From the IMG/VR virus record IMGVR_UViG_2721755643_000006, positions 1-49,995 of that record: a stretch of DNA of 49,995 nucleotides; one strand, 5' to 3'. The notes under the pieces are model-generated. The model did no database searches and was not told the origin of the DNA. It was given only the letters and a program-made list of their open reading frames with translations. The translations under genes and the position numbers were made by a program. Source of the stretch: a virus (Duplodnaviria > Heunggongvirae > Uroviricota > Caudoviricetes). Below, piece after piece: positions 9,845 through 45,655 of the stretch (position 1 is its first letter; each line of letters begins with the position of its first letter).

Positions 9845-12800
9845 TACCGGTATGCTCCACTTAACCGGCCACCATCACGGGCCTGCTGTTGCATAAAGTC
9901 CGCGGCCGCTTTTTTCCCGAGGTCATAAACCACCTTCAGGGCAGCCGGACCTATCTGCCCGTTCGTGCCGTCGTTATTGATCTCAATGTTGTACTGCGGG
10001 GCAAACATCACCATGCCTGAACCACCAGTATCCGCCACAACCCCCAGCTTACCATCAGCACCGCGACGCAGTGGCAGAATGGCTTCAGGTCCCGCTTCCC
10101 CCATCACACCCGCGCCTTTTGCAAAAGCAAAAAACGTCGGACGGTTAACCACCGTGCCACTGTAGCGACTCAAATCAGCAGACTGGTAAACACCGCCATC
10201 AGCATTAGTCGTGAAGCCGAATAAAGAACCGACGCCCTTTACCGCCTGCATCATGGCCATCTGTGCCATAATTCTGGCCATATCTGACAACAGGGAAGAG
10301 GTGAAGGATTTAAAATTCAGCTTACCGGTGGTACAGAATGTCGCCAGTGCATTACCGGCACTGCTGAATGCCACTGTAAACATCTGTTCTGCCGTTCCCG
10401 CCGCATTATCCGCATCCGCCGTAAAATTCTGAAACGCCCGCATGGCACCGTTTTTCCAGTCGCCCTGCGCCACTTCCAGTTCCTGCCAGTAGCGTTTGTT
10501 TTCATTCAGTTGTCGCTTCAGGCTCCCCTTCAGCACCTCCTCAGCCCTCCGGTAGTCCTCCGTCCCGTAAGTGCCTTTCTGGCGACTGTCATTCTCAAGC
10601 TGTTGCAACTGTTGCCGGTATTCCTGCCGGATGCGCAACTGTGCCTGGTAGCGCTGCCGCTGCTTATCCCCCATACCTGCAGTGGCAATATCCAGATTGT
10701 GCTGCTCACGCAGTGCACGTTCTTTGTCTGCCAGCTGGCTGGTCAGCTGAACCGTTTTTTTTCTCAGGTCGTTAAGCGCTGTCTGTTTCTGCAGCTCCTG
10801 CTGTTTCACATCCAGCAGCGTCAGCGCCTGAATCAGCTCATTCTTACGGGCCAGCACACTCTTTTCATCTGCCGTCAGCTTTTTCCCGTCCAGGTCGCTG
10901 ATGCGCTGCTGCAGGGCCAGAAGCTGTTTATGCGCTTCAGTCATCCTTTCAGTGGCAATGCCTGCTGACTGTCTGGCAGCAGCAATCTGCCCTTCCACCT
11001 GTGCCTGCTGCTGACTGTACTGCAGCAATAACCGGGTGGCCTCATCATTACGGGTTGCCCGTGTATTTTTCTTAATGGCTTTTTCGTAACGTTCATTTTC
11101 ACGCTGTATCGCCGCATCCCTGACAGCCTGGTCGGCGTACTGCATGGCATTAATACGCGCAATTTCCCGCTGATGTCGTGCAGCTTCCGTTTCATTCATC
11201 CGGTTCAGCGCGGCATTTTCAGCATTCCGGCGTTTCTGTTGCTCCTGGTAATTCCGTTCTGCCTGCGCTTTTGCATCCTGCAAATCCTTCCGGCGTTTTT
11301 TCTCCTGAAGATCGTTAAGACGCTGCTGATCGTACTCCACCTGTGTGGAGGCGTTTGTCCACGGATATTTTTTCGCGCGCTGAATTTTTTCCTGTAACGC
11401 ATCAATCTGCGCATCCAGCGAGTCTTCACGACCAATATTCATGGCCGCATCCCAGAACTGCTTCCACCAGTCAGACAAGGTTTGCAGCGTACTACCCAGC
11501 GCATTGAGATTATTATCAATATCAGATGTGCGTTTACCGGTTTCCTCTGCCAGCGCAGACATGGCGATCCGGGCCGCATCACTGGACCGCCCCTGCTCCC
11601 CAAGGACGCGTATCTGCTCAAGCTGAGTGGCAGTCAAAAAATGCAGCGCATTGTCCAGCGCCTTCGCGGCATTTACAGGATCATCCTTCAGCCGCTTAAA
11701 CTGATTTATGGTATCGCTGACCGACTGGCCAACCGATCGCTCCATCTGTGCGGCAGCTTTCGCCACCATACCAATATCGTTTCCATGAAATGCCCCACTG
11801 CCCACCACCTGTGCCAGCGCACCGGCTGCCGCATGTTGCGTGATACCATTCCCGGATATGGCCCGGCTGAGTTTCCACAACTGCCCGACAGTGACACCGG
11901 CATAATGTCCCGTCAGCGCCAGCTGACGGTTAAATTCCTCGCCCTCCTTCCGGCCGTCATGCCAGGCTTTACCCAGACCCAGGACCGCCGCGACAAGTCC
12001 GCCAATAACGCCGCCAGTCATCATGCCTTTCGGCGACATCAGTGCGCCTGTCCATCCGGCACGGTTAGCCAGCGTTATCCCGGATCCCCTCAGCGCACCA
12101 AAATTGCCGCGCGCCATCTGACTGATTAACACCCCCAGCTCCCGCCGGGCTGCCGCACTTTTCAGCCCCAGCGAATGTGTGGCTTTTCCTGCCCGCTCCA
12201 TTTTGCGGATATACACTTCTGCAGCACTGCTTACCCCCAGCTGAGCCGCCCTGGCGCGAAGCAACTCAGAAGACGACAGATTCTGGCGGGTTGCCTGCTC
12301 TTTAAGCTGGCGGATAAACGCCGCTTTCTGCCGGGTGGCCTGTTCCTCTGCCTGCGTCAGGGCACGGGTTTTCGCCGTGATCTCCGAAATCAGCGCCAGA
12401 TAATCCTGCTGACCAACCCCGCCACTGTTTCTGGCCTGTCGGATCTGCTGCTGAATACGCTGTAATTCCTGAAGCCCCGCACCGGCCTGTTTCACACTGT
12501 CAATCTGGCGATAAAAGGCGGCAGCCGCTTTATCCTGCGCCTCCGCCAGTGCCCTGGCCTGCGCCTGTTCCTCGAGCATTTTCTGATTCAGGGCATCCAC
12601 GCGCAGACGGGTTTGTTCCACCTCACGGGCCATGCGTTCATGAGCCCGTGCGTTCTTTTCCACCGTCTGCGCATGGGCTGATGCTGCTGTTGCAGCCGAA
12701 GAAGCCACCTGCATTGTCTGCCGGGCCGCCTGAGTCTGACGCTCCATAAAACGCTGCATACGGGCAGAAGACCGTTCTGCATCGCTGGCTGCACCATTCA

Positions 12801-12885
12801 GAAGGTTTTTGATACGGGGAATTTCATTTTTAAACTCTGCCGCATCAATCCCCAAATCAATGACCAGGTTGGCTATCTGGTCCAT
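9844..12885 (-). CDS. H: Tail tape measure protein H
   Basis: About 1013 aa, coiled-coil rich, C-terminus NNDGTNGQIGPAALKVVYDLGKKAAADFMQQQARDGG matches lambda gpH; start taken at MDQIANLVIDLG just after the T stop. Confidence 0.9.
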   Translation of the reverse strand: MDQIANLVIDLGIDAAEFKNEIPRIKNLLNGAASDAERSSARMQRFMERQTQAARQTMQVASSAATAASAHAQTVEKNARAHERMAREVEQTRLRVDALNQKMLEEQAQARALAEAQDKAAAAFYRQIDSVKQAGAGLQELQRIQQQIRQARNSGGVGQQDYLALISEITAKTRALTQAEEQATRQKAAFIRQLKEQATRQNLSSSELLRARAAQLGVSSAAEVYIRKMERAGKATHSLGLKSAAARRELGVLISQMARGNFGALRGSGITLANRAGWTGALMSPKGMMTGGVIGGLVAAVLGLGKAWHDGRKEGEEFNRQLALTGHYAGVTVGQLWKLSRAISGNGITQHAAAGALAQVVGSGAFHGNDIGMVAKAAAQMERSVGQSVSDTINQFKRLKDDPVNAAKALDNALHFLTATQLEQIRVLGEQGRSSDAARIAMSALAEETGKRTSDIDNNLNALGSTLQTLSDWWKQFWDAAMNIGREDSLDAQIDALQEKIQRAKKYPWTNASTQVEYDQQRLNDLQEKKRRKDLQDAKAQAERNYQEQQKRRNAENAALNRMNETEAARHQREIARINAMQYADQAVRDAAIQRENERYEKAIKKNTRATRNDEATRLLLQYSQQQAQVEGQIAAARQSAGIATERMTEAHKQLLALQQRISDLDGKKLTADEKSVLARKNELIQALTLLDVKQQELQKQTALNDLRKKTVQLTSQLADKERALREQHNLDIATAGMGDKQRQRYQAQLRIRQEYRQQLQQLENDSRQKGTYGTEDYRRAEEVLKGSLKRQLNENKRYWQELEVAQGDWKNGAMRAFQNFTADADNAAGTAEQMFTVAFSSAGNALATFCTTGKLNFKSFTSSLLSDMARIMAQMAMMQAVKGVGSLFGFTTNADGGVYQSADLSRYSGTVVNRPTFFAFAKGAGVMGEAGPEAILPLRRGADGKLGVVADTGGSGMVMFAPQYNIEINNDGTNGQIGPAALKVVYDLGKKAAADFMQQQARDGGRLSGAYR

Positions 12886-13186
12886 AACGCACACCTCCGG
12901 AAATACCTTCCCCAAGATGCATCAGTTCTTCGTCCGTTCGCTCCGGTATCCCGTTCTCTTCCGGTAAAAGGCTGAAATCAGCCACCGCAGCATCGCTGCT
13001 GCCGGACACCATTCTCACGATCAATGCCTTCAGCGAGGCAAACTGCGCATCCATCCACACATCACTGAAGCTCTGCATCCGGAAATAATCGCCCCACTCA
13101 CCAAGCTCAGTGGCCGACATTTCCGACAGCATCCGCCGCCAGTCTGCCCGCCGGAACTCCCGGGCAAGCCGCATGACAAACTGCAT
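12857..13186 (-). CDS. T: T segment of the tail assembly chaperone G-T fusion (reached by -1 frameshift from G)
   Basis: ORF overlaps the 3' end of G in the -1 frame and ends just before H, the conserved G/G-T arrangement of lambda-like siphophages. Confidence 0.6.
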   Translation of the reverse strand: MQFVMRLAREFRRADWRRMLSEMSATELGEWGDYFRMQSFSDVWMDAQFASLKALIVRMVSGSSDAAVADFSLLPEENGIPERTDEELMHLGEGISGGVRYGPDSQPGH

Positions 13187-29734: not shown

Positions 29735-29809
<75 letters not shown>

Positions 29810-29812
29810 ATA

Positions 29813-29888
<76 letters not shown>

Positions 29889-29890
29889 GC

Positions 29891-29967
29891 TGGCCCACCA
29901 CCGAGGACTCGAACCTCGCACCGTCAACTTAGAAGGTTGATGCTCTATCCGGATGAGCTAGTGGTGG
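29891..29967 (-). tRNA. tRNA-Arg (anticodon TCT)
   Basis: 77-nt cloverleaf: anticodon stem TCAAC/GTTGA, loop CTTCTAA, T-arm CGAGG-TTCGAGT-CCTCG, CCA end. Confidence 0.75.
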
Positions 29968-29968
29968 T

Positions 29969-30044
29969 TGGTGGCCCTTGCTGGACTTGAACCAGCGACC
30001 TGGCGATTATGAGTCGCTCGCTCTCACCACTGAGCTAAAGGGCC
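29969..30044 (-). tRNA. tRNA with CAT anticodon, ileX/ileZ-like (Ile2 or Met)
   Basis: GGCCCTTTAGCTCAGTGGT.AGAGC...GACTCATAATCGC...GGTCGCTGGTTCAAGTCCAGCA.GGGCCACCA is nearly identical to E. coli tRNA-Ile2 as recalled. Confidence 0.8.
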
Positions 30045-32276: not shown

Positions 32277-32352
32277 AGGATGATCCTTTTTCTATGTGAA
32301 TCATCACCAACCTGAGACCAATCAGGGTGGTGAGCTGGCGGCGTTGGTCTTA

Positions 32353-32384
32353 CCGGGAAAAAGGAACCGGCGCGCCGGAGCGCC
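32353..32384 (-). terminator. Candidate tR'-like terminator downstream of Q
   Basis: Minus-strand GC hairpin (GGCGC-loop-GCGCC within CCGGCGCGCCGG) followed by TTCCTTTTTCC. Confidence 0.3.
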
Positions 32385-32510
32385 ACCGCCAACCCACCAT
32401 AATGCGAGTGTGGCTATGCAAACGACAATAAAAAAGACGCGAGCGCGCCTATTGCCGCCTTTTTCATCCGGGAGACCAATCCCGACGCCAGATTTTGCTG
32501 ACGCGTGAGG

Positions 32511-34805: not shown

Positions 34806-34961
34806 TTACTCCTCAGGTTCGTAAGCTGTGAAGACAGCGACCTCCGTCTGGCCGGTTCGGATTCGTACCTCGCAGAGGTCTTCCCTCGTTACCAGTGCCG
34901 TCACTATGACGGTTAAACAGATGACGATCAGGGCGACTAACATCGCCTTTTGCTGCTTCAT
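34806..34961 (-). CDS. hok: Hok/Gef-family type I toxin
   Basis: MKQQKAMLVALIVICLTVIVTALVTREDLCEVRIRTGQTEVAVFTAYEPEE is nearly identical to E. coli HokD/RelF. Confidence 0.88.
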   Translation of the reverse strand: MKQQKAMLVALIVICLTVIVTALVTREDLCEVRIRTGQTEVAVFTAYEPEE

Positions 34962-35296
34962 AGCCTGCTTCTCCTTGCCTTCCGGCACGTAAGAGGCTAA
35001 CCTACATTTGTGAGACATAGATTGGGCCTCAGATTAATGTTAAGCGTCCTGCAAGACGCGTAATGTTAACTGGGGCTTTTCTCTGTCTGCCTTACAGTGG
35101 CATGCCCGAGGCAGACAGCCTCAAGCACCCGCAGCCATTCTACTTAACCTTTTAGCTGTTTCCAACATTTTATCTTTGCACCAAAATTCGCTCGCAACCT
35201 ATCGATAAATCTAGAATTTTTAAATTAATAGATTGCAATAACATGCGATGTTCTCTTTAACCAAAATCAGGTCACACAAAAACCATTCTACAATTT

Positions 35297-39963: not shown

Positions 39964-40184
39964 GTCCACCTCATCTGGTGCCGAACCTTCCTCCGGATAT
40001 AATCTGTGATTCCCCAATCAACAGAACCAGAGGAGGTTCGACATGTCTTTTTTGAAAAGCCTTTATCGGGCTCATATATTAAAAGTTGCAGCAACAAATC
40101 ACTGGCAAGAAGGAACAGATGAAATGTTGCCGGATTACCGGGCATGGCTGCGCGCCGAAACATACCTTCGTCTCGATATGCTGA

Positions 40185-40694
40185 TTAACGATCTTCAAAA
40201 AGAGGCTCCATCCACTCAAACCCTTCAGGGTGTCGGCGCTGTTCGCGTTCTGGTATCTCGCCATAACGCTCTCTCAGTAACTGAAGTGCGTCAGCTTTCT
40301 TTTGCTGAACTGATTTTCTTGCTTCAGCCAGCTCTGGAATCAGTGAATATCCCATCGGAGGTGTTCCGGTATCCGCCCCACGTGAACCAACAGCTACAAG
40401 CTGCACAAGACAACAGGCATGCTGGATTGACTCCCTGCTCAGAGGCTGAATGGGATCATTCTCTGCTGAAGAGATACCAAGATTTGTATAATCCTCAATA
40501 AGCCGGGCGCACGCTTCAGCATCAGCCAGTTTTTTTCTGGTTTCCTTGCGCTGTTCTCTGACGGACAAACGCCAGAGCAGCGCATTGGCTTTATGCATCA
40601 GCCACTCTGCCAGTTCCACATCAGATAAACCGCCACGCCAGATGTGTGGACTGTTTTCGTAAACGCTCAGTGTCAGTTTTTTGTCATTGGTCAT
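40185..40694 (-). CDS. Hypothetical early-right protein
   Basis: 169-aa ORF from MTNDKK in the operon strand; overlapped antisense by ORF 40043-40501, see findings. Confidence 0.45.
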   Translation of the reverse strand: MTNDKKLTLSVYENSPHIWRGGLSDVELAEWLMHKANALLWRLSVREQRKETRKKLADAEACARLIEDYTNLGISSAENDPIQPLSRESIQHACCLVQLVAVGSRGADTGTPPMGYSLIPELAEARKSVQQKKADALQLLRERYGEIPEREQRRHPEGFEWMEPLFEDR

Positions 40695-40707: not shown

Positions 40708-41133
40708 TCAATGCACAGCCAGAGTATTTCCTGCCGGACCACCACGATTCATCTGATCGAACAGAACGATCGCTGATGCAACGAAATCATCGATATCTTT
40801 CACCAGCTGTTCCTGCGTCTCCAGCAGTTCCCGAAAATAAACTGAACTGTGGCTGCGCATTCGGGCCACCAGCGGAGGCGGCATTGCCTTTTCGATCGCT
40901 GGTAACAACGCCTGAATTTTTTTAACAGCATCAGGGGTGTCTTTCTCTATCCAGCGGAAAATTTTCTGAGTATTGCGAGCCAGGGCTTCCGGATGGCTGT
41001 CGTCATATAGCTCCGGGAACGTCATACCCAGCTCAAAATAAGCCCAGGTTATTTCAGCTGCCGGAACTTTTTCACCGTCCGGATGCGCCCAGGCATTCAT
41101 CGCCATGCGGATGTGTTCATGCTTGATTTTCAT
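40708..41133 (-). CDS. YdaT-like protein (Rac prophage family)
   Basis: Begins MKIKHEHI and ends ...AVH as remembered for Rac YdaT; follows the Cro-like gene. Confidence 0.55.
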   Translation of the reverse strand: MKIKHEHIRMAMNAWAHPDGEKVPAAEITWAYFELGMTFPELYDDSHPEALARNTQKIFRWIEKDTPDAVKKIQALLPAIEKAMPPPLVARMRSHSSVYFRELLETQEQLVKDIDDFVASAIVLFDQMNRGGPAGNTLAVH

Positions 41134-41136
41134 GAA

Positions 41137-41418
41137 TCAACCTCCATCAGCCTTTTTGGTGTTAAGTTCATATTTGTGACGTGAAGGAGACGTGATTCCA
41201 GTGTATTCGGGCCATATAAGATCCCAGTCATTAGGTCTCAATTCTCGTCTTGTAACATGTCCTCCAGTTTCTGCTTCTATCATCAACGCACGAACAGGAG
41301 ACACAGGTGAAGTTCCAGATGCCATTTGGGACAAGAAAGACGGAGACACACCAAGATTGGTCGCAAATTTTTTTGCTTCTCCAGTTTTTAATGATTTGAT
41401 GAATTCCTTTAGCGTCAT
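41137..41418 (-). CDS. Cro/DicC/YdaS-like HTH protein, first gene of the early-right operon
   Basis: 93 aa with HTH (ATNLGVSPSFLSQMASG), divergent from the DicA-like repressor. Confidence 0.7.
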   Translation of the reverse strand: MTLKEFIKSLKTGEAKKFATNLGVSPSFLSQMASGTSPVSPVRALMIEAETGGHVTRRELRPNDWDLIWPEYTGITSPSRHKYELNTKKADGG

Positions 41419-41520
41419 AATTTTTATCTCAGCACATTTAGAACAAGTAAAAGTTTATACGCAACTAAATAAACCAGTCAAGTATTTGCTTGTTTTGCGA
41501 TTACTAAAGATAATGCATGT

Positions 41521-41892
41521 ATGGAAACAAAAGAGATTCGGCGTTTACGCCTCAAAGAGTGGTTCAAAGACAGGACTTTGCCGCCTAAAGAGAAAAGTTA
41601 CTTATCTCAGTTAATGAGTGGTAAAGCTACGTTTGGCGAAAAGGCAGCTAGACGTATTGAGCAAACATATGGGATGCCTGGGGGGTATCTTGATATGGAA
41701 CCTGAAGATACAACAGAATCTCCGTCATCAAGATCTATGGCATTAACTCCTAACCAATTGGAATTGTTGCAAATATTTAGTGCTTTTCCTGACGCTGAGC
41801 AGCAGGAAATCATAAAAGAGCTAAGAAACAAAAAAGAGGCAATGGAAGATCTTGTTGCACGTTGGTTGGCGCGGCAAGGTCGCCGAGCCTGA
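41521..41892 (+). CDS. DicA-like prophage repressor (HTH_XRE plus DicA-type C-terminal domain)
   Basis: HTH segment and C-terminal LTPNQLELLQIFSAFPDAEQQEIIKELRNKKEAMEDLVARWLA parallel to Qin DicA. Confidence 0.75.
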   Translation: METKEIRRLRLKEWFKDRTLPPKEKSYLSQLMSGKATFGEKAARRIEQTYGMPGGYLDMEPEDTTESPSSRSMALTPNQLELLQIFSAFPDAEQQEIIKELRNKKEAMEDLVARWLARQGRRA

Positions 41893-41922
41893 CGTGATAC
41901 TTACTAAAACAAGAGATATCAG

Positions 41923-42384
41923 ATGGGCGTACTCGAAATCAGTGCTCTTAGAATTAAGATGCTTCTATTGGCAAAAGGCTGGAGCCAAGCAGAACTTGCG
42001 CGCAGAATTGGTATTGCTCAACAATCCGTCCAAAGGTGGGTTTGTGGCATCTCAAGCCCTACAGCAGCCAACCTAGATAAACTATCTGATGTGACTGGAT
42101 TTCCTCAGTATTGGTTTTTCTTACCATTAAATGAAGAAAATAAGGACAGGGCACAGGATATATTAAAAATAACCCCTACGCAAAAGGAACTACTTCAAAC
42201 ATTTGAGGCATTTCCAGAGGAAGAGCAACAGCAAATGCTTAAAGATATGAAGGAGAAAAAAGAGACAATGGATCGTATAGTTGCAAAGTGGCTAGCAGCA
42301 CAACAAAAAGTTCCTAGGCAGGATTACCAGTACTTACAAGACGAGGTTCACCATGAACACGGCCCTTTCACCAATGGTTTCTGA
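41923..42384 (+). CDS. paaR2: PaaR2-like regulator of the three-component TA system (DicA paralogue)
   Basis: HTH (LLLAKGWSQAELARRIGIAQQSVQRWV) plus C-terminal domain paralogous to the upstream repressor; directly precedes paaA2-parE2. Confidence 0.75.
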   Translation: MGVLEISALRIKMLLLAKGWSQAELARRIGIAQQSVQRWVCGISSPTAANLDKLSDVTGFPQYWFFLPLNEENKDRAQDILKITPTQKELLQTFEAFPEEEQQQMLKDMKEKKETMDRIVAKWLAAQQKVPRQDYQYLQDEVHHEHGPFTNGF

Positions 42385-42544
42385 ATTTGAAACCGTCGAG
42401 CAAGAAAATAGTTATAACGAATGGCTGCGTGCAAAAGTGGCCGCAAGCCTTGCTGATCCACGTCCAGCCATTCCCCATGACGAAGTTGAACGCAGAATGG
42501 CTGAACGCTTTGCTAACATGCGCAAGGAACGGAGCAAACAGTAA
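42353..42544 (+). CDS. paaA2: PaaA2 antitoxin
   Basis: MNTALSPMVSEFETVEQENSYNEWLRAKVAASLADPRPAIPHDEVERRMAERFANMRKERSKQ nearly identical to E. coli O157 PaaA2 as recalled. Confidence 0.82.
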   Translation: MNTALSPMVSEFETVEQENSYNEWLRAKVAASLADPRPAIPHDEVERRMAERFANMRKERSKQ

Positions 42545-42832
42545 ATGTTACCGGTTTTATGGCTCGAAAGCGCAGATGCCGACCTAGATAATATAACCAG
42601 CTATATTGCACGTTTTGACATAGATGCGGCAGAACGTTTGTGGAAACGCTTAAGGACTTGCGTCCTGCCATTATCTGAACATCCGTATTTATACCCGCCA
42701 AGCGACAGAGTGCCTGGTTTGCGTGAAATTGTAGCTCACCCCAATTACATCATTCTGTACCGCGTGACAATTTCAGGCATTGAAATTGTTAACGTAGTTC
42801 ACGCCCGCCGACAGTTCCCTGTAACACCTTAA
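42545..42832 (+). CDS. parE2: ParE2 toxin (RelE/ParE superfamily)
   Basis: 95-aa ORF whose start abuts the antitoxin stop (TAAATG). Confidence 0.82.
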   Translation: MLPVLWLESADADLDNITSYIARFDIDAAERLWKRLRTCVLPLSEHPYLYPPSDRVPGLREIVAHPNYIILYRVTISGIEIVNVVHARRQFPVTP

Positions 42833-42843
42833 TCCCCCTAAGC

Positions 42844-42867
42844 CCCTCTCAAGAGGGGTTATTCCTG
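42844..42867 (+). terminator. Possible weak terminator after parE2
   Basis: CCCCTCT-CA-AGAGGGG hairpin followed by TTATTCC. Confidence 0.3.
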
Positions 42868-43097
42868 CCAAAGAGTTAAGTTAAATATTGACTGTTTAGT
42901 TTATTTTTGCATAAACTAGTTTTACCAACCCACTCCGCCCCACAGAACGCAGGGCAATACTTCGAGTTACCAGGCAGTGGTCAGGGGGTAAGTAGCCAGC
43001 CCGAGGCGTAAGAACATGACGGCAGGGTTCAACTTTAATAACTATGCAGCAGGTTTTTTGTTCCGCCACCCCGGCGTTAAGGGGAAATGAGGTCAGC

Positions 43098-44616: not shown

Positions 44617-45097
44617 AAAGTGAATTTTGTGATGCGGTGAATGCGGCTCAGCGCACGCGGAACAGTTAAAAAGCGATTAGTTCCCACGTATCGGGTGGTT
44701 ATGGGTATCCCTGTATCCGGCGTTAATTGTTAACTGGTTAACGTCACCTGGAGGCACCAGGCACCGCATCAACAAAGTTCACTTCGGTGATGAAAGGAAA
44801 GAGAAAATGTTGAATGTAGCTATTGAAAACCAGAACGGGTGGAATTATAGTGCACCTGCACCTCATAAAACGGGTGCCGGGATTGGCCTCCTGTTAATCA
44901 CATTGGTGCCTGAACACGCGCCAAAAGCGTGTTTTTTGTTGCCTGCATTTCATCATTCAATGGCAGCTCAGGCGGGAGCTTCTCACGAAGCGCCGGGTTC
45001 CGATGTGACCGGTAAGGCCAATCCCGTCTGGGCTACCACCAATCGGATTGGCCTCTGCGGTGGTGGCAGTACTGCTTTCACATCGGAGGATGCCGTT

Positions 45098-45655
45098 ATG
45101 GCTACTATCACTACCCTTTCTCACCCTTGTGTAACCATCGAAAATGGTCGCGCTGTCACCACATCTGTCGCCATTGCGGAATTCTTCCGCAAAATGCATA
45201 AAGACGTTCTGAAAAAAATAGACAACCTAGAATGCTCTGAGAAATTTAGCGGGCGCAATTTTGCGCCCGCCGAATATCTTGATGAGCAAGGCAAAAAACG
45301 CCCAATGTACCAGATCACCAAAAACGGCTTCGTTTTCCTGGTGATGGGCTTCACAGGCAAAAAAGCCGCTGCATTCAAGGAAGCCTACATTGCTGAGTTC
45401 GACCGCATGGAGGCCGAACTGCGCCAGAATAACACCCCACCTGCTGACAAGATGATTCCGGGTGATGGTCGCACTCTGGTTGTTCACTTCGACAAATTCG
45501 GCAATGTCGAATTCACCGAAACCGTTCCTGATGGCGCACTGGTCTGTACCCTGGAGACTTTCCGGTTTTATCTGGAAAAACAGGGATGGACTCTTGTTAA
45601 CCGGGGCGCAATTAAAAATATGACTGTGGAACAATTACTCAAAATTCATTGTTGA
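45098..45655 (+). CDS. Rha-family phage regulatory/antirepressor protein
   Basis: Rha-like N-terminus (VTTSVAIAEFFRKMHKDVLKKIDNL) and the C-terminal domain shared with 31716-32276; GGAGGA 7 nt upstream; the longer ORF-track N-terminus is probably not translated. Confidence 0.72.
   Translation: MATITTLSHPCVTIENGRAVTTSVAIAEFFRKMHKDVLKKIDNLECSEKFSGRNFAPAEYLDEQGKKRPMYQITKNGFVFLVMGFTGKKAAAFKEAYIAEFDRMEAELRQNNTPPADKMIPGDGRTLVVHFDKFGNVEFTETVPDGALVCTLETFRFYLEKQGWTLVNRGAIKNMTVEQLLKIHC

What the first reader, a model, noticed from the sequence alone, without database searches (positions are those of the whole stretch)
41521..42832. Tandem DicA-type repressor paralogues; the second heads a paaR2-paaA2-parE2 three-component toxin-antitoxin
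Two adjacent plus-strand genes (41521-41892, 41923-42384) share an HTH and a conserved C-terminal domain (LTPNQLELLQIFSAFPDAEQQ vs ITPTQKELLQTFEAFPEEEQQ). The first is positioned as the prophage repressor, divergent from the Cro-like gene. The second is followed by a PaaA2-like antitoxin and ParE2-like toxin with a TAAATG stop/start junction. The immunity region thus doubles as a TA addiction module.
Basis: established knowledge. Interest (0 to 1): 0.45.

Follow-up and report, generated by a model that had tools for sequence, protein, structure and literature searches.

The report
Two-repressor variant of paaR2-paaA2-parE2 locus
This is the immunity region of an E. coli lambda-like prophage carrying the already published PaaA2-ParE2 toxin-antitoxin pair, unusual only because a second, PaaR1/DicA-like repressor gene sits between the true PaaR2 repressor gene and the antitoxin gene.

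Summary
In detail: four co-directional genes lie at the stated coordinates. The toxin-antitoxin call is correct. PaaA2 is 94% and ParE2 90% identical to the solved E. coli O157:H7 proteins.

The gene assignment is reversed. The first gene (41521-41892) is the PaaR2 orthologue: 77% identical over its full length, and its N-domain matches PDB 7NKV at E 1.5e-31. It keeps the leaderless PRM layout, the matching OR/OL operator regions, and the divergent ydaS (Cro analogue) and ydaT (CII analogue).

The second gene (41923-42384) is an extra regulator. It has an XRE helix-turn-helix domain plus the PaaR/DicA C-terminal helical domain. It is 54% identical to the Sakai Sp4 regulator, which I take to be PaaR1, and 31% identical to K-12 DicA.

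Three locus architectures exist:
- PaaR2-A-E, the published form.
- XRE-regulator-A-E.
- The four-gene form seen here, found in 16 of 5426 complete E. coli genomes and in some metagenome contigs.

The extra gene is under purifying selection, strongest in its helix-turn-helix domain. No operator for it was found in the prophage, so its target is unknown; heteroimmunity is the leading guess.

The toxin-antitoxin module and its role within the immunity region are already published. Only the two-repressor arrangement is a modest new variant.

The parts
40708..41133 (-). ydaT, the CII-analogue regulator
   Evidence: Pfam YdaT_toxin E 1e-9. phrog_163 'CII-like transcriptional activator' E 3.9e-44. 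Function assigned by analogy with CP-933P YdaT (PMC8630535, PMC9986795).
41123..41140 (.). YdaT operator OM, TTGATTTTCATGAATCAA, at the ydaS/ydaT junction
   Evidence: Exact match to the published 5'-TTGATTN6AATCAA-3' YdaT site (PMC9986795). It is the only zero-mismatch hit in the window.
41137..41418 (-). ydaS, the Cro analogue, divergent from gene 1
   Evidence: Pfam YdaS_toxin E 1.9e-9. phrog_35 E 2.7e-17. 99% DNA identity to the ydaS of the three-gene locus L001.
41419..41520 (.). OR-like intergenic control region (102 bp). PR on the - strand: TTGACT 41481-41476, 18-nt spacer, TAAACT 41457-41452. PRM on the + strand: TTGCTT 41486-41491, 17-nt spacer, GATAAT 41509-41514, then 6 nt to the ATG, giving a leaderless layout.
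   Evidence: PR was found by the promoter scan. The PRM hexamers and their spacing to the ATG are identical to Sakai Sp12/CP-933P, where 5' RACE mapped the transcription start to the A of the paaR2 ATG (PMC8630535).
41521..41892 (+). Gene 1: the PaaR2 orthologue, the CI-analogue immunity repressor (123 aa)
   Evidence: PDB 7NKV/8C3K/8C3L E 1.5e-31 over residues 1-63. 77% identity over full length to O157 PaaR2. dN/dS 0.06-0.10.
41893..41922 (+). 30-nt spacer between gene 1 and gene 2; no room for an independent promoter
   Evidence: The spacer is 19-34 nt in other four-gene loci. No promoter-like site was found there.
41923..42384 (+). Gene 2: an extra PaaR1/DicA-architecture regulator (153 aa). 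It has an XRE HTH domain (residues ~3-66), a linker, two C-terminal helices (85-128) and a low-confidence 3' tail (134-153) that overlaps paaA2.
   Evidence: Pfam HTH_3 E 2.7e-12. 54% identity to Sakai Sp4 ECs_1069, E 2e-51. 31% identity to K-12 DicA, E 4e-15. AF2 model with mean pLDDT 72 and tail below 50. dN/dS 0.13-0.21 overall and 0.05-0.22 in the HTH domain. The tail arises from a 2-nt indel relative to the 132-aa forms.
42353..42544 (+). paaA2 antitoxin (63 aa, no DNA-binding domain)
   Evidence: Pfam PaaA2 E 1.1e-20. PDB 3ZBE E 1.3e-34. 94% identity to Sakai PaaA2 and 63% to the Sp4 antitoxin.
42545..42832 (+). parE2 toxin (95 aa); its start follows the paaA2 stop directly (TAAATG)
   Evidence: Pfam ParE_toxin E 4.6e-16. 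PDB 5CW7 E 2.2e-55. 90% identity to Sakai ParE2 and 67% to the Sp4 toxin.
42841..42860 (+). Terminator-like GC hairpin ending the operon
   Evidence: Terminator scan. RNA fold -13.4 kcal/mol, z-score -2.1. The T-run is weak.
42888..42917 (+). PL-like promoter with the OL-like region. Its hexamers (TTGACT, 18-nt spacer, TAAACT) are identical to those of PR.
   Evidence: This is the same property reported for PL933P versus PR933P (PMC8630535). The sequence is shared with the three-gene locus L001.

Best explanation
The region is the immunity switch of an E. coli lambdoid prophage of the CP-933P/Sp12 type, and it carries four co-directional genes. Gene 1 is the PaaR2 orthologue, the CI analogue. 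By analogy with CP-933P it is transcribed without a leader from a PRM-like promoter. It should bind the OR region (41419-41520) and the OL/PL region (about 42888-42917), repressing the divergent ydaS (Cro analogue) and ydaT (CII analogue) genes. Gene 2, paaA2 and parE2 follow with no room for a promoter of their own, so I infer one four-gene operon that ends at the hairpin at 42841-42860. PaaA2-ParE2 is the published addiction module occupying the lambda rexAB position. Gene 2 is a second repressor of the same PaaR/DicA family. Its N-terminal domain is a different, canonical XRE helix-turn-helix, of the type that serves as the sole CI analogue in 'type B' prophages such as Sakai Sp4 and strain RM11911. 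It is maintained by selection, most strongly in its DNA-binding domain, yet the prophage has no operator set of either type B kind that I could define. My best guess is that it acts in trans, for example repressing heteroimmune type B phages. Shown: gene identities, homologies, conserved promoter and operator layout, rarity, and purifying selection. Inferred: co-transcription, and every statement about what gene 2 does.
For: Identity of the toxin-antitoxin pair. Gene 1 is PaaR2. Regulatory scaffold conserved with CP-933P: PRM hexamers and leaderless spacing; identical PR and PL hexamers; exact YdaT OM site. Gene 2 is of PaaR1/DicA architecture. Three architectures exist. Type A is L001, L005 and L006. 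Type B is L003 and L007. Type C is the window plus L002, L004, L013-L015 and metagenome contigs L008 and L009. Relative to type A, gene 2 is an exact cassette between the gene 1 stop codon and the paaA2 start codon. The OR and OL regions of type C loci match those of type A locus L001, not type B. Gene 2 is under purifying selection: dN/dS 0.13-0.21 overall, 0.05-0.22 in the HTH domain and 0.20-0.38 in the linker plus C-domain. The addiction and immunity role of the module is published (PMC8630535).
Against: No experiment on this locus exists. Co-transcription of four genes is inferred only from the 30-nt spacer and the lack of a promoter hit. No binding site for the gene 2 product was found. 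The operator motif I derived from RM11911 (ACTTTnnAAGT) and the Sp4-type motif (AACTGTn8ACAGTT) are absent from the immunity region and occur no more often than chance in the window. A scan for palindrome clusters found nothing relevant. Gene 2's specificity cannot be predicted, because RM11911 and Sp4 have different operators despite similar recognition helices, so the heteroimmunity idea is untested. The dN/dS values rest on small counts (2-18 changes per comparison). The 3' end of gene 2 is unstable, with three tail variants among type C loci and tail dN/dS around 0.45. The terminator has a poor T-run.
Confidence: 0.75

Rival explanations
1. Gene 1 is a separate DicA-type prophage repressor. 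Gene 2 is PaaR2, the dedicated regulator heading a self-contained three-gene paaR2-paaA2-parE2 unit.
For: Gene 2 lies directly upstream of paaA2 and overlaps it. Regulators with gene 2's architecture do head three-gene loci whose PaaA and ParE are 95% and 91% identical to those of the window (L003). The gene 2-paaA2 junction (GAGGT Shine-Dalgarno context) resembles type B loci rather than type A.
Against: PaaR2 as defined in O157:H7 is the 123-aa protein, and gene 1 is its orthologue. Gene 2 has no similarity to the PaaR2 N-domain. In all three-gene loci the 'PaaR' gene is itself the CI analogue, facing ydaS. There is no promoter or operator region between gene 1 and gene 2.
Confidence: 0.1
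2. Gene 2 is a functionless relic. It is a stranded type B repressor gene left behind by recombination between heteroimmune lambdoid phages and is now decaying.
For: No cognate operators are present in the prophage. The 3' end is frameshifted, giving three tail variants. The arrangement is rare, at 16 of 5426 genomes. The region is a gene-by-gene mosaic.
Against: The ORF is intact in every type C locus examined, across dS up to about 0.44-0.5. dN/dS is 0.13-0.21 overall and lowest in the HTH domain at 0.05-0.22. The tail changes leave the two predicted domains untouched.
Confidence: 0.1
3. Gene 2 works through its shared C-terminal domain. It forms mixed oligomers with the PaaR2 orthologue and so tunes the bistable switch or the OR-OL looping, rather than acting as an independent repressor.
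For: The two C-domains are homologous: 36% identity, E 9e-17. PaaR2 is reported to octamerise in solution (PMC8630535). Fused proteins with two HTH domains and one C-domain occupy the cI position in other prophages.
Against: Selection is stronger on the HTH domain than on the C-domain, which argues that DNA binding by gene 2 matters. At 36% identity, co-assembly is not guaranteed. That the C-domain is the oligomerisation domain is my inference; the relevant paper could not be read.
Confidence: 0.15

Closest known systems
paaR2-paaA2-parE2 with divergent ydaS-ydaT in E. coli O157:H7 cryptic prophage CP-933P / Sakai Sp12 (Hallez et al. 2010, cited from reviews; Jurenas et al. 2021, PMC8630535)
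   Same: Gene order ydaT-ydaS <-> paaR2 ... paaA2-parE2, followed by PL. PaaR2 is 77% identical, PaaA2 94% and ParE2 90%. The PRM hexamers and leaderless spacing are identical, the PR and PL hexamers match each other, and the YdaT OM site is exact.
   Different: An extra 462-nt regulator gene lies between paaR2 and paaA2. In CP-933P only 20 nt separate them. The operator sequences differ from the CP-933P GTTTAGTAA consensus, so immunity specificity probably differs too.
Sakai Sp4 locus ECs_1069-1068-1067. I take it to be paaR1-paaA1-parE1 of CP-933M; the Sp4 = CP-933M equivalence is from my own knowledge.
   Same: Gene 2 has the same architecture as ECs_1069 (XRE HTH plus PaaR C-domain) and is 54% identical to it. 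The ydaT of the window is 92% identical in DNA to the Sp4 ydaT.
   Different: In Sp4 the XRE regulator is the only CI analogue. It faces ydaS and has its own OR/OL motif, AACTGTn8ACAGTT. Its PaaA and ParE are only 63% and 67% identical to those of the window.
DicA-DicC of the K-12 Qin prophage
   Same: The position in the prophage map is the same: divergent Cro-like gene, then repressor, ydfA, ydfC and dicB. The C-terminal domain is shared. DicA is 31% identical to gene 2 (E 4e-15) and 32% identical to the C-terminal part of gene 1 (E 1e-9).
   Different: Qin has one repressor and no toxin-antitoxin pair. Both window proteins score far below the NCBIfam DicA cut-off (56.6 and 32.8 bits against 101).
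Lambda cI-rexA-rexB immunity operon
   Same: A leaderless repressor gene expressed from PRM, followed by accessory host-affecting genes, flanked by OR and OL, with Cro and CII analogues opposite (PMC8630535).
   Different: There is no sequence similarity and no S24 peptidase domain, so the repressor is not cleavable through RecA. There are two repressor genes, and a toxin-antitoxin pair stands in place of rexAB.

Membership tests
PaaR-PaaA-ParE tripartite toxin-antitoxin system (PaaA2-ParE2 type) | ParE-fold toxin closely related to ParE2 | tested here: met
   Pfam ParE_toxin E 4.6e-16. PDB 5CW7 E 2.2e-55. 90% identity to Sakai ParE2.
PaaR-PaaA-ParE tripartite toxin-antitoxin system (PaaA2-ParE2 type) | Small PaaA antitoxin with no DNA-binding domain, encoded immediately upstream of the toxin | tested here: met
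   Pfam PaaA2 E 1.1e-20. PDB 3ZBE E 1.3e-34. 94% identity to Sakai PaaA2. TAAATG junction.
PaaR-PaaA-ParE tripartite toxin-antitoxin system (PaaA2-ParE2 type) | A separate PaaR regulator gene upstream in the same operon | tested here: met
   Two such genes are present, not one: gene 1 (PaaR2 orthologue) and gene 2 (PaaR1-like). Co-transcription is inferred, not shown.
PaaR-PaaA-ParE tripartite toxin-antitoxin system (PaaA2-ParE2 type) | Toxicity of ParE, neutralisation by the cognate PaaA, and plasmid stabilisation (addiction) | not testable with these tools
   Shown for the O157:H7 proteins only (PMC8630535; review PMC4803016).
PaaR2 (CI analogue of CP-933P): membership of gene 1 | PaaR2-type N-terminal DNA-binding domain plus the C-terminal domain, 123 aa, leaderless, facing ydaS | tested here: met
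   7NKV E 1.5e-31. 77% identity over full length. PRM layout conserved.
PaaR2 (CI analogue of CP-933P): membership of gene 2 | PaaR2-type N-terminal domain | tested here: not met
   The PDB search with gene 2 returns only generic XRE repressors (3VK0 E 8e-4; 434 repressor E 9e-3) and not 7NKV. Only the C-terminal 75 residues align with gene 1.
DicA (NCBIfam NF007257) | Score at or above the curated cut-off of 101 bits | tested here: not met
   Gene 2 scores 56.6 bits and gene 1 scores 32.8 bits. Pairwise identity to K-12 DicA is 31-32%. The architecture is shared, but they are not equivalogs.
Lambdoid immunity switch of the CP-933P type | Divergent PR/PRM with shared operators, a distal PL/OL with the same hexamers, and a CII-analogue site at the ydaS/ydaT junction | tested here: met
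   Protein binding itself is not testable here.

The most novel reading that the evidence does not exclude
The four-gene locus is a dual-specificity immunity region. The prophage expresses its own PaaR2-type repressor and, from the same transcript, a second repressor with a different DNA-binding domain. This second repressor may silence heteroimmune (type B, XRE-repressor) lambdoid phages. Alternatively it may co-assemble with PaaR2 through the shared C-domain and so change the bistable switch that controls the toxin-antitoxin pair. The single-chain proteins with two HTH domains seen at the cI position of other prophages would then be the fused form of the same design.
Probability: 0.25. Interest if true: 0.5.

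Novelty: new variant of a known kind. Interest (0 to 1): 0.28.

Why it matters
The toxin-antitoxin pair and its embedding in a lambda-like switch are already described, so most of this finding is confirmation. Two things are worth keeping.

First, a correction for annotation. In this family 'PaaR' is simply whichever CI analogue the prophage carries, and PaaR2 is the unannotated 123-aa 'hypothetical protein', not the gene with the recognisable HTH domain.

Second, a rare but selected arrangement places two repressors with a common C-terminal domain and different DNA-binding domains in tandem. If the second one confers cross-immunity or modifies the switch, it would be a simple natural example of how lambdoid phages stack immunity specificities. 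It would also be a handle on how the three-gene PaaR-PaaA-ParE forms arose.

Tried and rejected
1. I looked for operators for gene 2. I derived the repeated palindrome of the type B locus L003 (ACTTTnnAAGT in both OR and OL) and of Sakai Sp4 (AACTGTn8ACAGTT). Neither occurs in or near the immunity region, and neither exceeds chance in the window.

2. I scanned the whole window for clustered exact palindromes (5-nt arms, spacer 0-12). The only cluster lies inside a large ORF (9844-12915) on the late-gene side of the prophage.

3. The CP-933P half-site GTTTAGTAA gave 4 hits at one mismatch or fewer, against 5.8 expected. Two fall at 41501-41509 and 41901-41909, which is suggestive but not significant.

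4. I tried to decide whether the four-gene form is ancestral or recombinant, using segment-wise identity. paaA2-parE2 is about 89% identical to both type A and type B loci, so there is no signal.

5. I rejected an internal promoter at 41690-41719 flanked by ATCTTGAT/ATCAAGAT repeats. The same sequence is present in three-gene locus L001, and the number of promoter-like hits is at the chance level.

6. The deposited-phage collection holds only one related locus, Escherichia phage Evi. Its match is in two pieces spanning about 1290 nt, so I take it to be three-gene. No four-gene form was found.

7. The De Bruyn et al. 2019 paper on PaaR2 oligomerisation could not be read.

Full report
**Observation**

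- 41521-41892, 123 aa ('gene 1')
- 41923-42384, 153 aa ('gene 2')
- 42353-42544, 63 aa
- 42545-42832, 95 aa

A divergent Cro-like gene lies at 41137-41418, with a further minus-strand gene at 40708-41133. The two regulators share a C-terminal domain, with 36% identity over 75 residues and BLASTP E 9e-17. Both match the same phage regulator profile, phrog_5736, over most of their length. The antitoxin stop codon and toxin start codon are adjacent (TAAATG). The one qualification is that a 'shared HTH' is not visible at sequence level. Pfam HTH_3 finds only gene 2, and gene 1 has an 8-residue gap where gene 2 has HTH helix 2.

**The toxin-antitoxin pair**

- The 63-aa protein matches Pfam PaaA2 (E 1.1e-20) and the solved PaaA2 of E. 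coli O157:H7 (3ZBE, E 1.3e-34).
- The 95-aa protein matches ParE_toxin (E 4.6e-16) and the solved ParE2 (5CW7, E 2.2e-55).
- Against the Sakai Sp12 proteins the identities are 94% and 90%. Against the second O157 system in prophage Sp4 they are 63% and 67%.

**Which gene is PaaR2**

The N-terminal 63 residues of gene 1 match PDB 7NKV/8C3K/8C3L at E 1.5e-31. The PDB entries are named 'phage repressor protein CI'.

The locus in strain E2855 encodes PaaA2 and ParE2 that match the solved sequences residue for residue over the aligned regions. The gene in front of them encodes a 123-aa protein starting MQKKE. That is the N-terminal sequence determined for PaaR2 by Jurenas et al. 2021 (PMC8630535). 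Sakai ECs_2279 is essentially the same protein.

Gene 1 is 77% identical to it over the full length. Gene 1 is therefore the PaaR2 orthologue. In the published system PaaR2 is itself the CI analogue of the prophage.

**Gene 2**

Gene 2 has a canonical XRE HTH domain (HTH_3, E 2.7e-12) followed by the PaaR/DicA C-terminal domain. Its similarities are:
- 54% identity (E 2e-51) to ECs_1069, the regulator heading ECs_1069-1068-1067 in Sakai Sp4. I take that locus to be paaR1-paaA1-parE1 of CP-933M. The paper says only that a homologue lies on CP-933M; the Sp4 = CP-933M equivalence is my own knowledge.
- 65% identity to the regulator of strain RM11911.
- 31% identity to K-12 DicA (E 4e-15).

Gene 2 scores 56.6 bits against the NCBIfam DicA model, whose cut-off is 101, so it is DicA-like in architecture but not a DicA equivalog.

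An AlphaFold2 model (mean pLDDT 72) shows three parts:
- a five-helix N-domain (residues 3-66, pLDDT about 80-89);
- a poorly defined linker region, followed by two helices (85-95 and 99-128);
- a low-confidence tail (134-153).

The tail results from a 2-nt indel relative to the 132-aa relatives. The indel extends the ORF 21 codons into paaA2.

**Three architectures**

Comparison with annotated E. coli genomes shows three forms:
- Type A: ydaT-ydaS <-> PaaR2-PaaA2-ParE2 (STEC17-183, E2855, Sakai Sp12).
- Type B: ydaT-ydaS <-> XRE-regulator-PaaA-ParE (RM11911, Sakai Sp4).
- Type C, the window: PaaR2-type, then XRE-type, then PaaA2-ParE2 (RMDEC364, GF60, SCU-171, 00-3076, O157:H16 98-3133).

Only 16 of 5426 complete E. 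coli genomes hold the whole type C stretch. The same four-gene order occurs on two metagenome contigs. No deposited phage has it.

Relative to type A, gene 2 is an exact cassette between the gene 1 stop codon and the paaA2 start codon. The gene 2-paaA2 junction resembles type B. Segment-wise identities show an ordinary lambdoid mosaic and do not reveal which form came first.

**Regulatory scaffold**

The 102-bp intergenic region carries a PR-like promoter for ydaS (TTGACT, 18-nt spacer, TAAACT).

It also carries a PRM-like promoter: TTGCTT at 41486-41491, a 17-nt spacer, GATAAT at 41509-41514, then 6 nt to the ATG. The hexamers and spacing are the same as in Sp12. In CP-933P the transcription start was mapped to the A of the start codon, giving a leaderless mRNA.

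Downstream of parE2 there is a hairpin at 42841-42860. Beyond it is a PL-like promoter at 42888-42917 whose hexamers equal those of PR, as reported for PL933P.

The published YdaT site TTGATTN6AATCAA occurs exactly once without mismatch, at the ydaS/ydaT junction, 41123-41140 (PMC9986795).

OR and OL of type C loci match those of type A locus L001, not those of type B loci. The cis elements therefore belong with gene 1 and ydaS. The spacer between genes 1 and 2 is 19-34 nt in all type C loci and holds no promoter-like site. From this I infer a single four-gene operon.

**Is gene 2 functional, and what does it do?**

Across type C loci (dS up to about 0.5) the ORF is always intact. The dN/dS values are:

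| Region | dN/dS |
|---|---|
| Gene 1 | 0.06-0.10 |
| Gene 2, whole (first 127 codons) | 0.13-0.21 |
| Gene 2, HTH domain | 0.05-0.22 |
| Gene 2, linker plus C-domain | 0.20-0.38 |
| Gene 2, tail | about 0.45 (three length variants) |

Counts are small, but the pattern argues for a maintained DNA-binding protein rather than a relic.

I could not find its target. The type B operators I derived are absent from the immunity region and at chance frequency in the window. These were ACTTTnnAAGT in RM11911 and AACTGTn8ACAGTT in Sp4. A palindrome-cluster scan found nothing relevant.

The leading hypothesis is therefore a trans-acting role, meaning heteroimmunity against type B phages. The alternative is co-assembly with PaaR2 through the shared C-domain; PaaR2 is reported to octamerise. 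Both are inferences.

**Comparison with what is known, and novelty**

The window adds a close orthologue whose operator sequences differ from those of CP-933P, so its immunity specificity probably differs too.

The only element I did not find described in the papers I could read is the tandem of a PaaR2-type and a PaaR1/DicA-type regulator in one locus. I rate it a new variant of a known kind, of modest interest.

Noticed in passing
L010:4001-4735, L011:1512-2246, L012:865-1599 (proteins P0027, P0040, P0041, P0055, P0061): These roughly 244-aa proteins fuse three parts in one chain: a lambda-CI/P22-C2-like HTH domain (my reading of the sequence), a second PaaR1-type XRE HTH domain, and the PaaR/DicA C-domain. 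In the three loci fetched for P0027 (L010-L012) the gene occupies the cI position opposite ydaS/ydaT-like genes and is followed by HipA_2 (PF20613) plus DUF3037 instead of paaA-parE. They look like a fused counterpart of the two-gene tandem in the window.
   Followed up: partly
window 44858-45043 (+) and 32323-32504 (-): There are two isrK plus C4 antisense RNA pairs (Rfam, above gathering score). The first overlaps the 5' part of the long ORF 44807-45655, which corresponds to the gene annotated as a Rha-family regulator in strain RMDEC364. The layout looks like a P1/P7-style antisense-controlled antirepressor module inside a lambdoid prophage.
   Followed up: no
window 34956-35130 (-) and 29738-30044 (-): A sok antitoxin RNA (116.9 bits), implying a hok/sok type I toxin-antitoxin locus, and a cluster of four tRNA genes lie in the same prophage.
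   Followed up: no
window 42304-42384; L013:2323-2718; L004:3828-4226: The 3' end of gene 2 exists in three forms among four-gene loci. One is 153 aa and overlaps paaA2 by 32 nt. One is 131 aa ending QQKVT. One is 132 aa ending GHRA. They differ by small indels near an A-rich stretch. A PaaR1-like protein frameshifted in a comparable way was also seen (P0060).
   Followed up: partly
window 40043-40501 (+): A 152-aa ORF is annotated in RefSeq relatives as 'ECs1072 family phage-associated protein'. It sits on the opposite strand between ydaT and the replication genes, as in Sakai Sp4. It has no PHROG hit, and Pfam was not run on it.
   Followed up: no
L002:8018-10633 versus window 42833-43043: Strain RMDEC364 is 100% identical to the window over 41100-42900, but it has an IS66-family element (ISCro1) annotated between parE2 and ydfA. 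The window has only about 210 nt of non-IS-like sequence there, so it appears to lack that insertion.
   Followed up: no
window 40708-41133 versus L007 (Sakai Sp4): The ydaT of the window is 92% identical in DNA to the Sp4 ydaT, while the adjacent ydaS has no detectable DNA match to Sp4. This is a sharp mosaic boundary at the gene border, where the YdaT operator lies.
   Followed up: no
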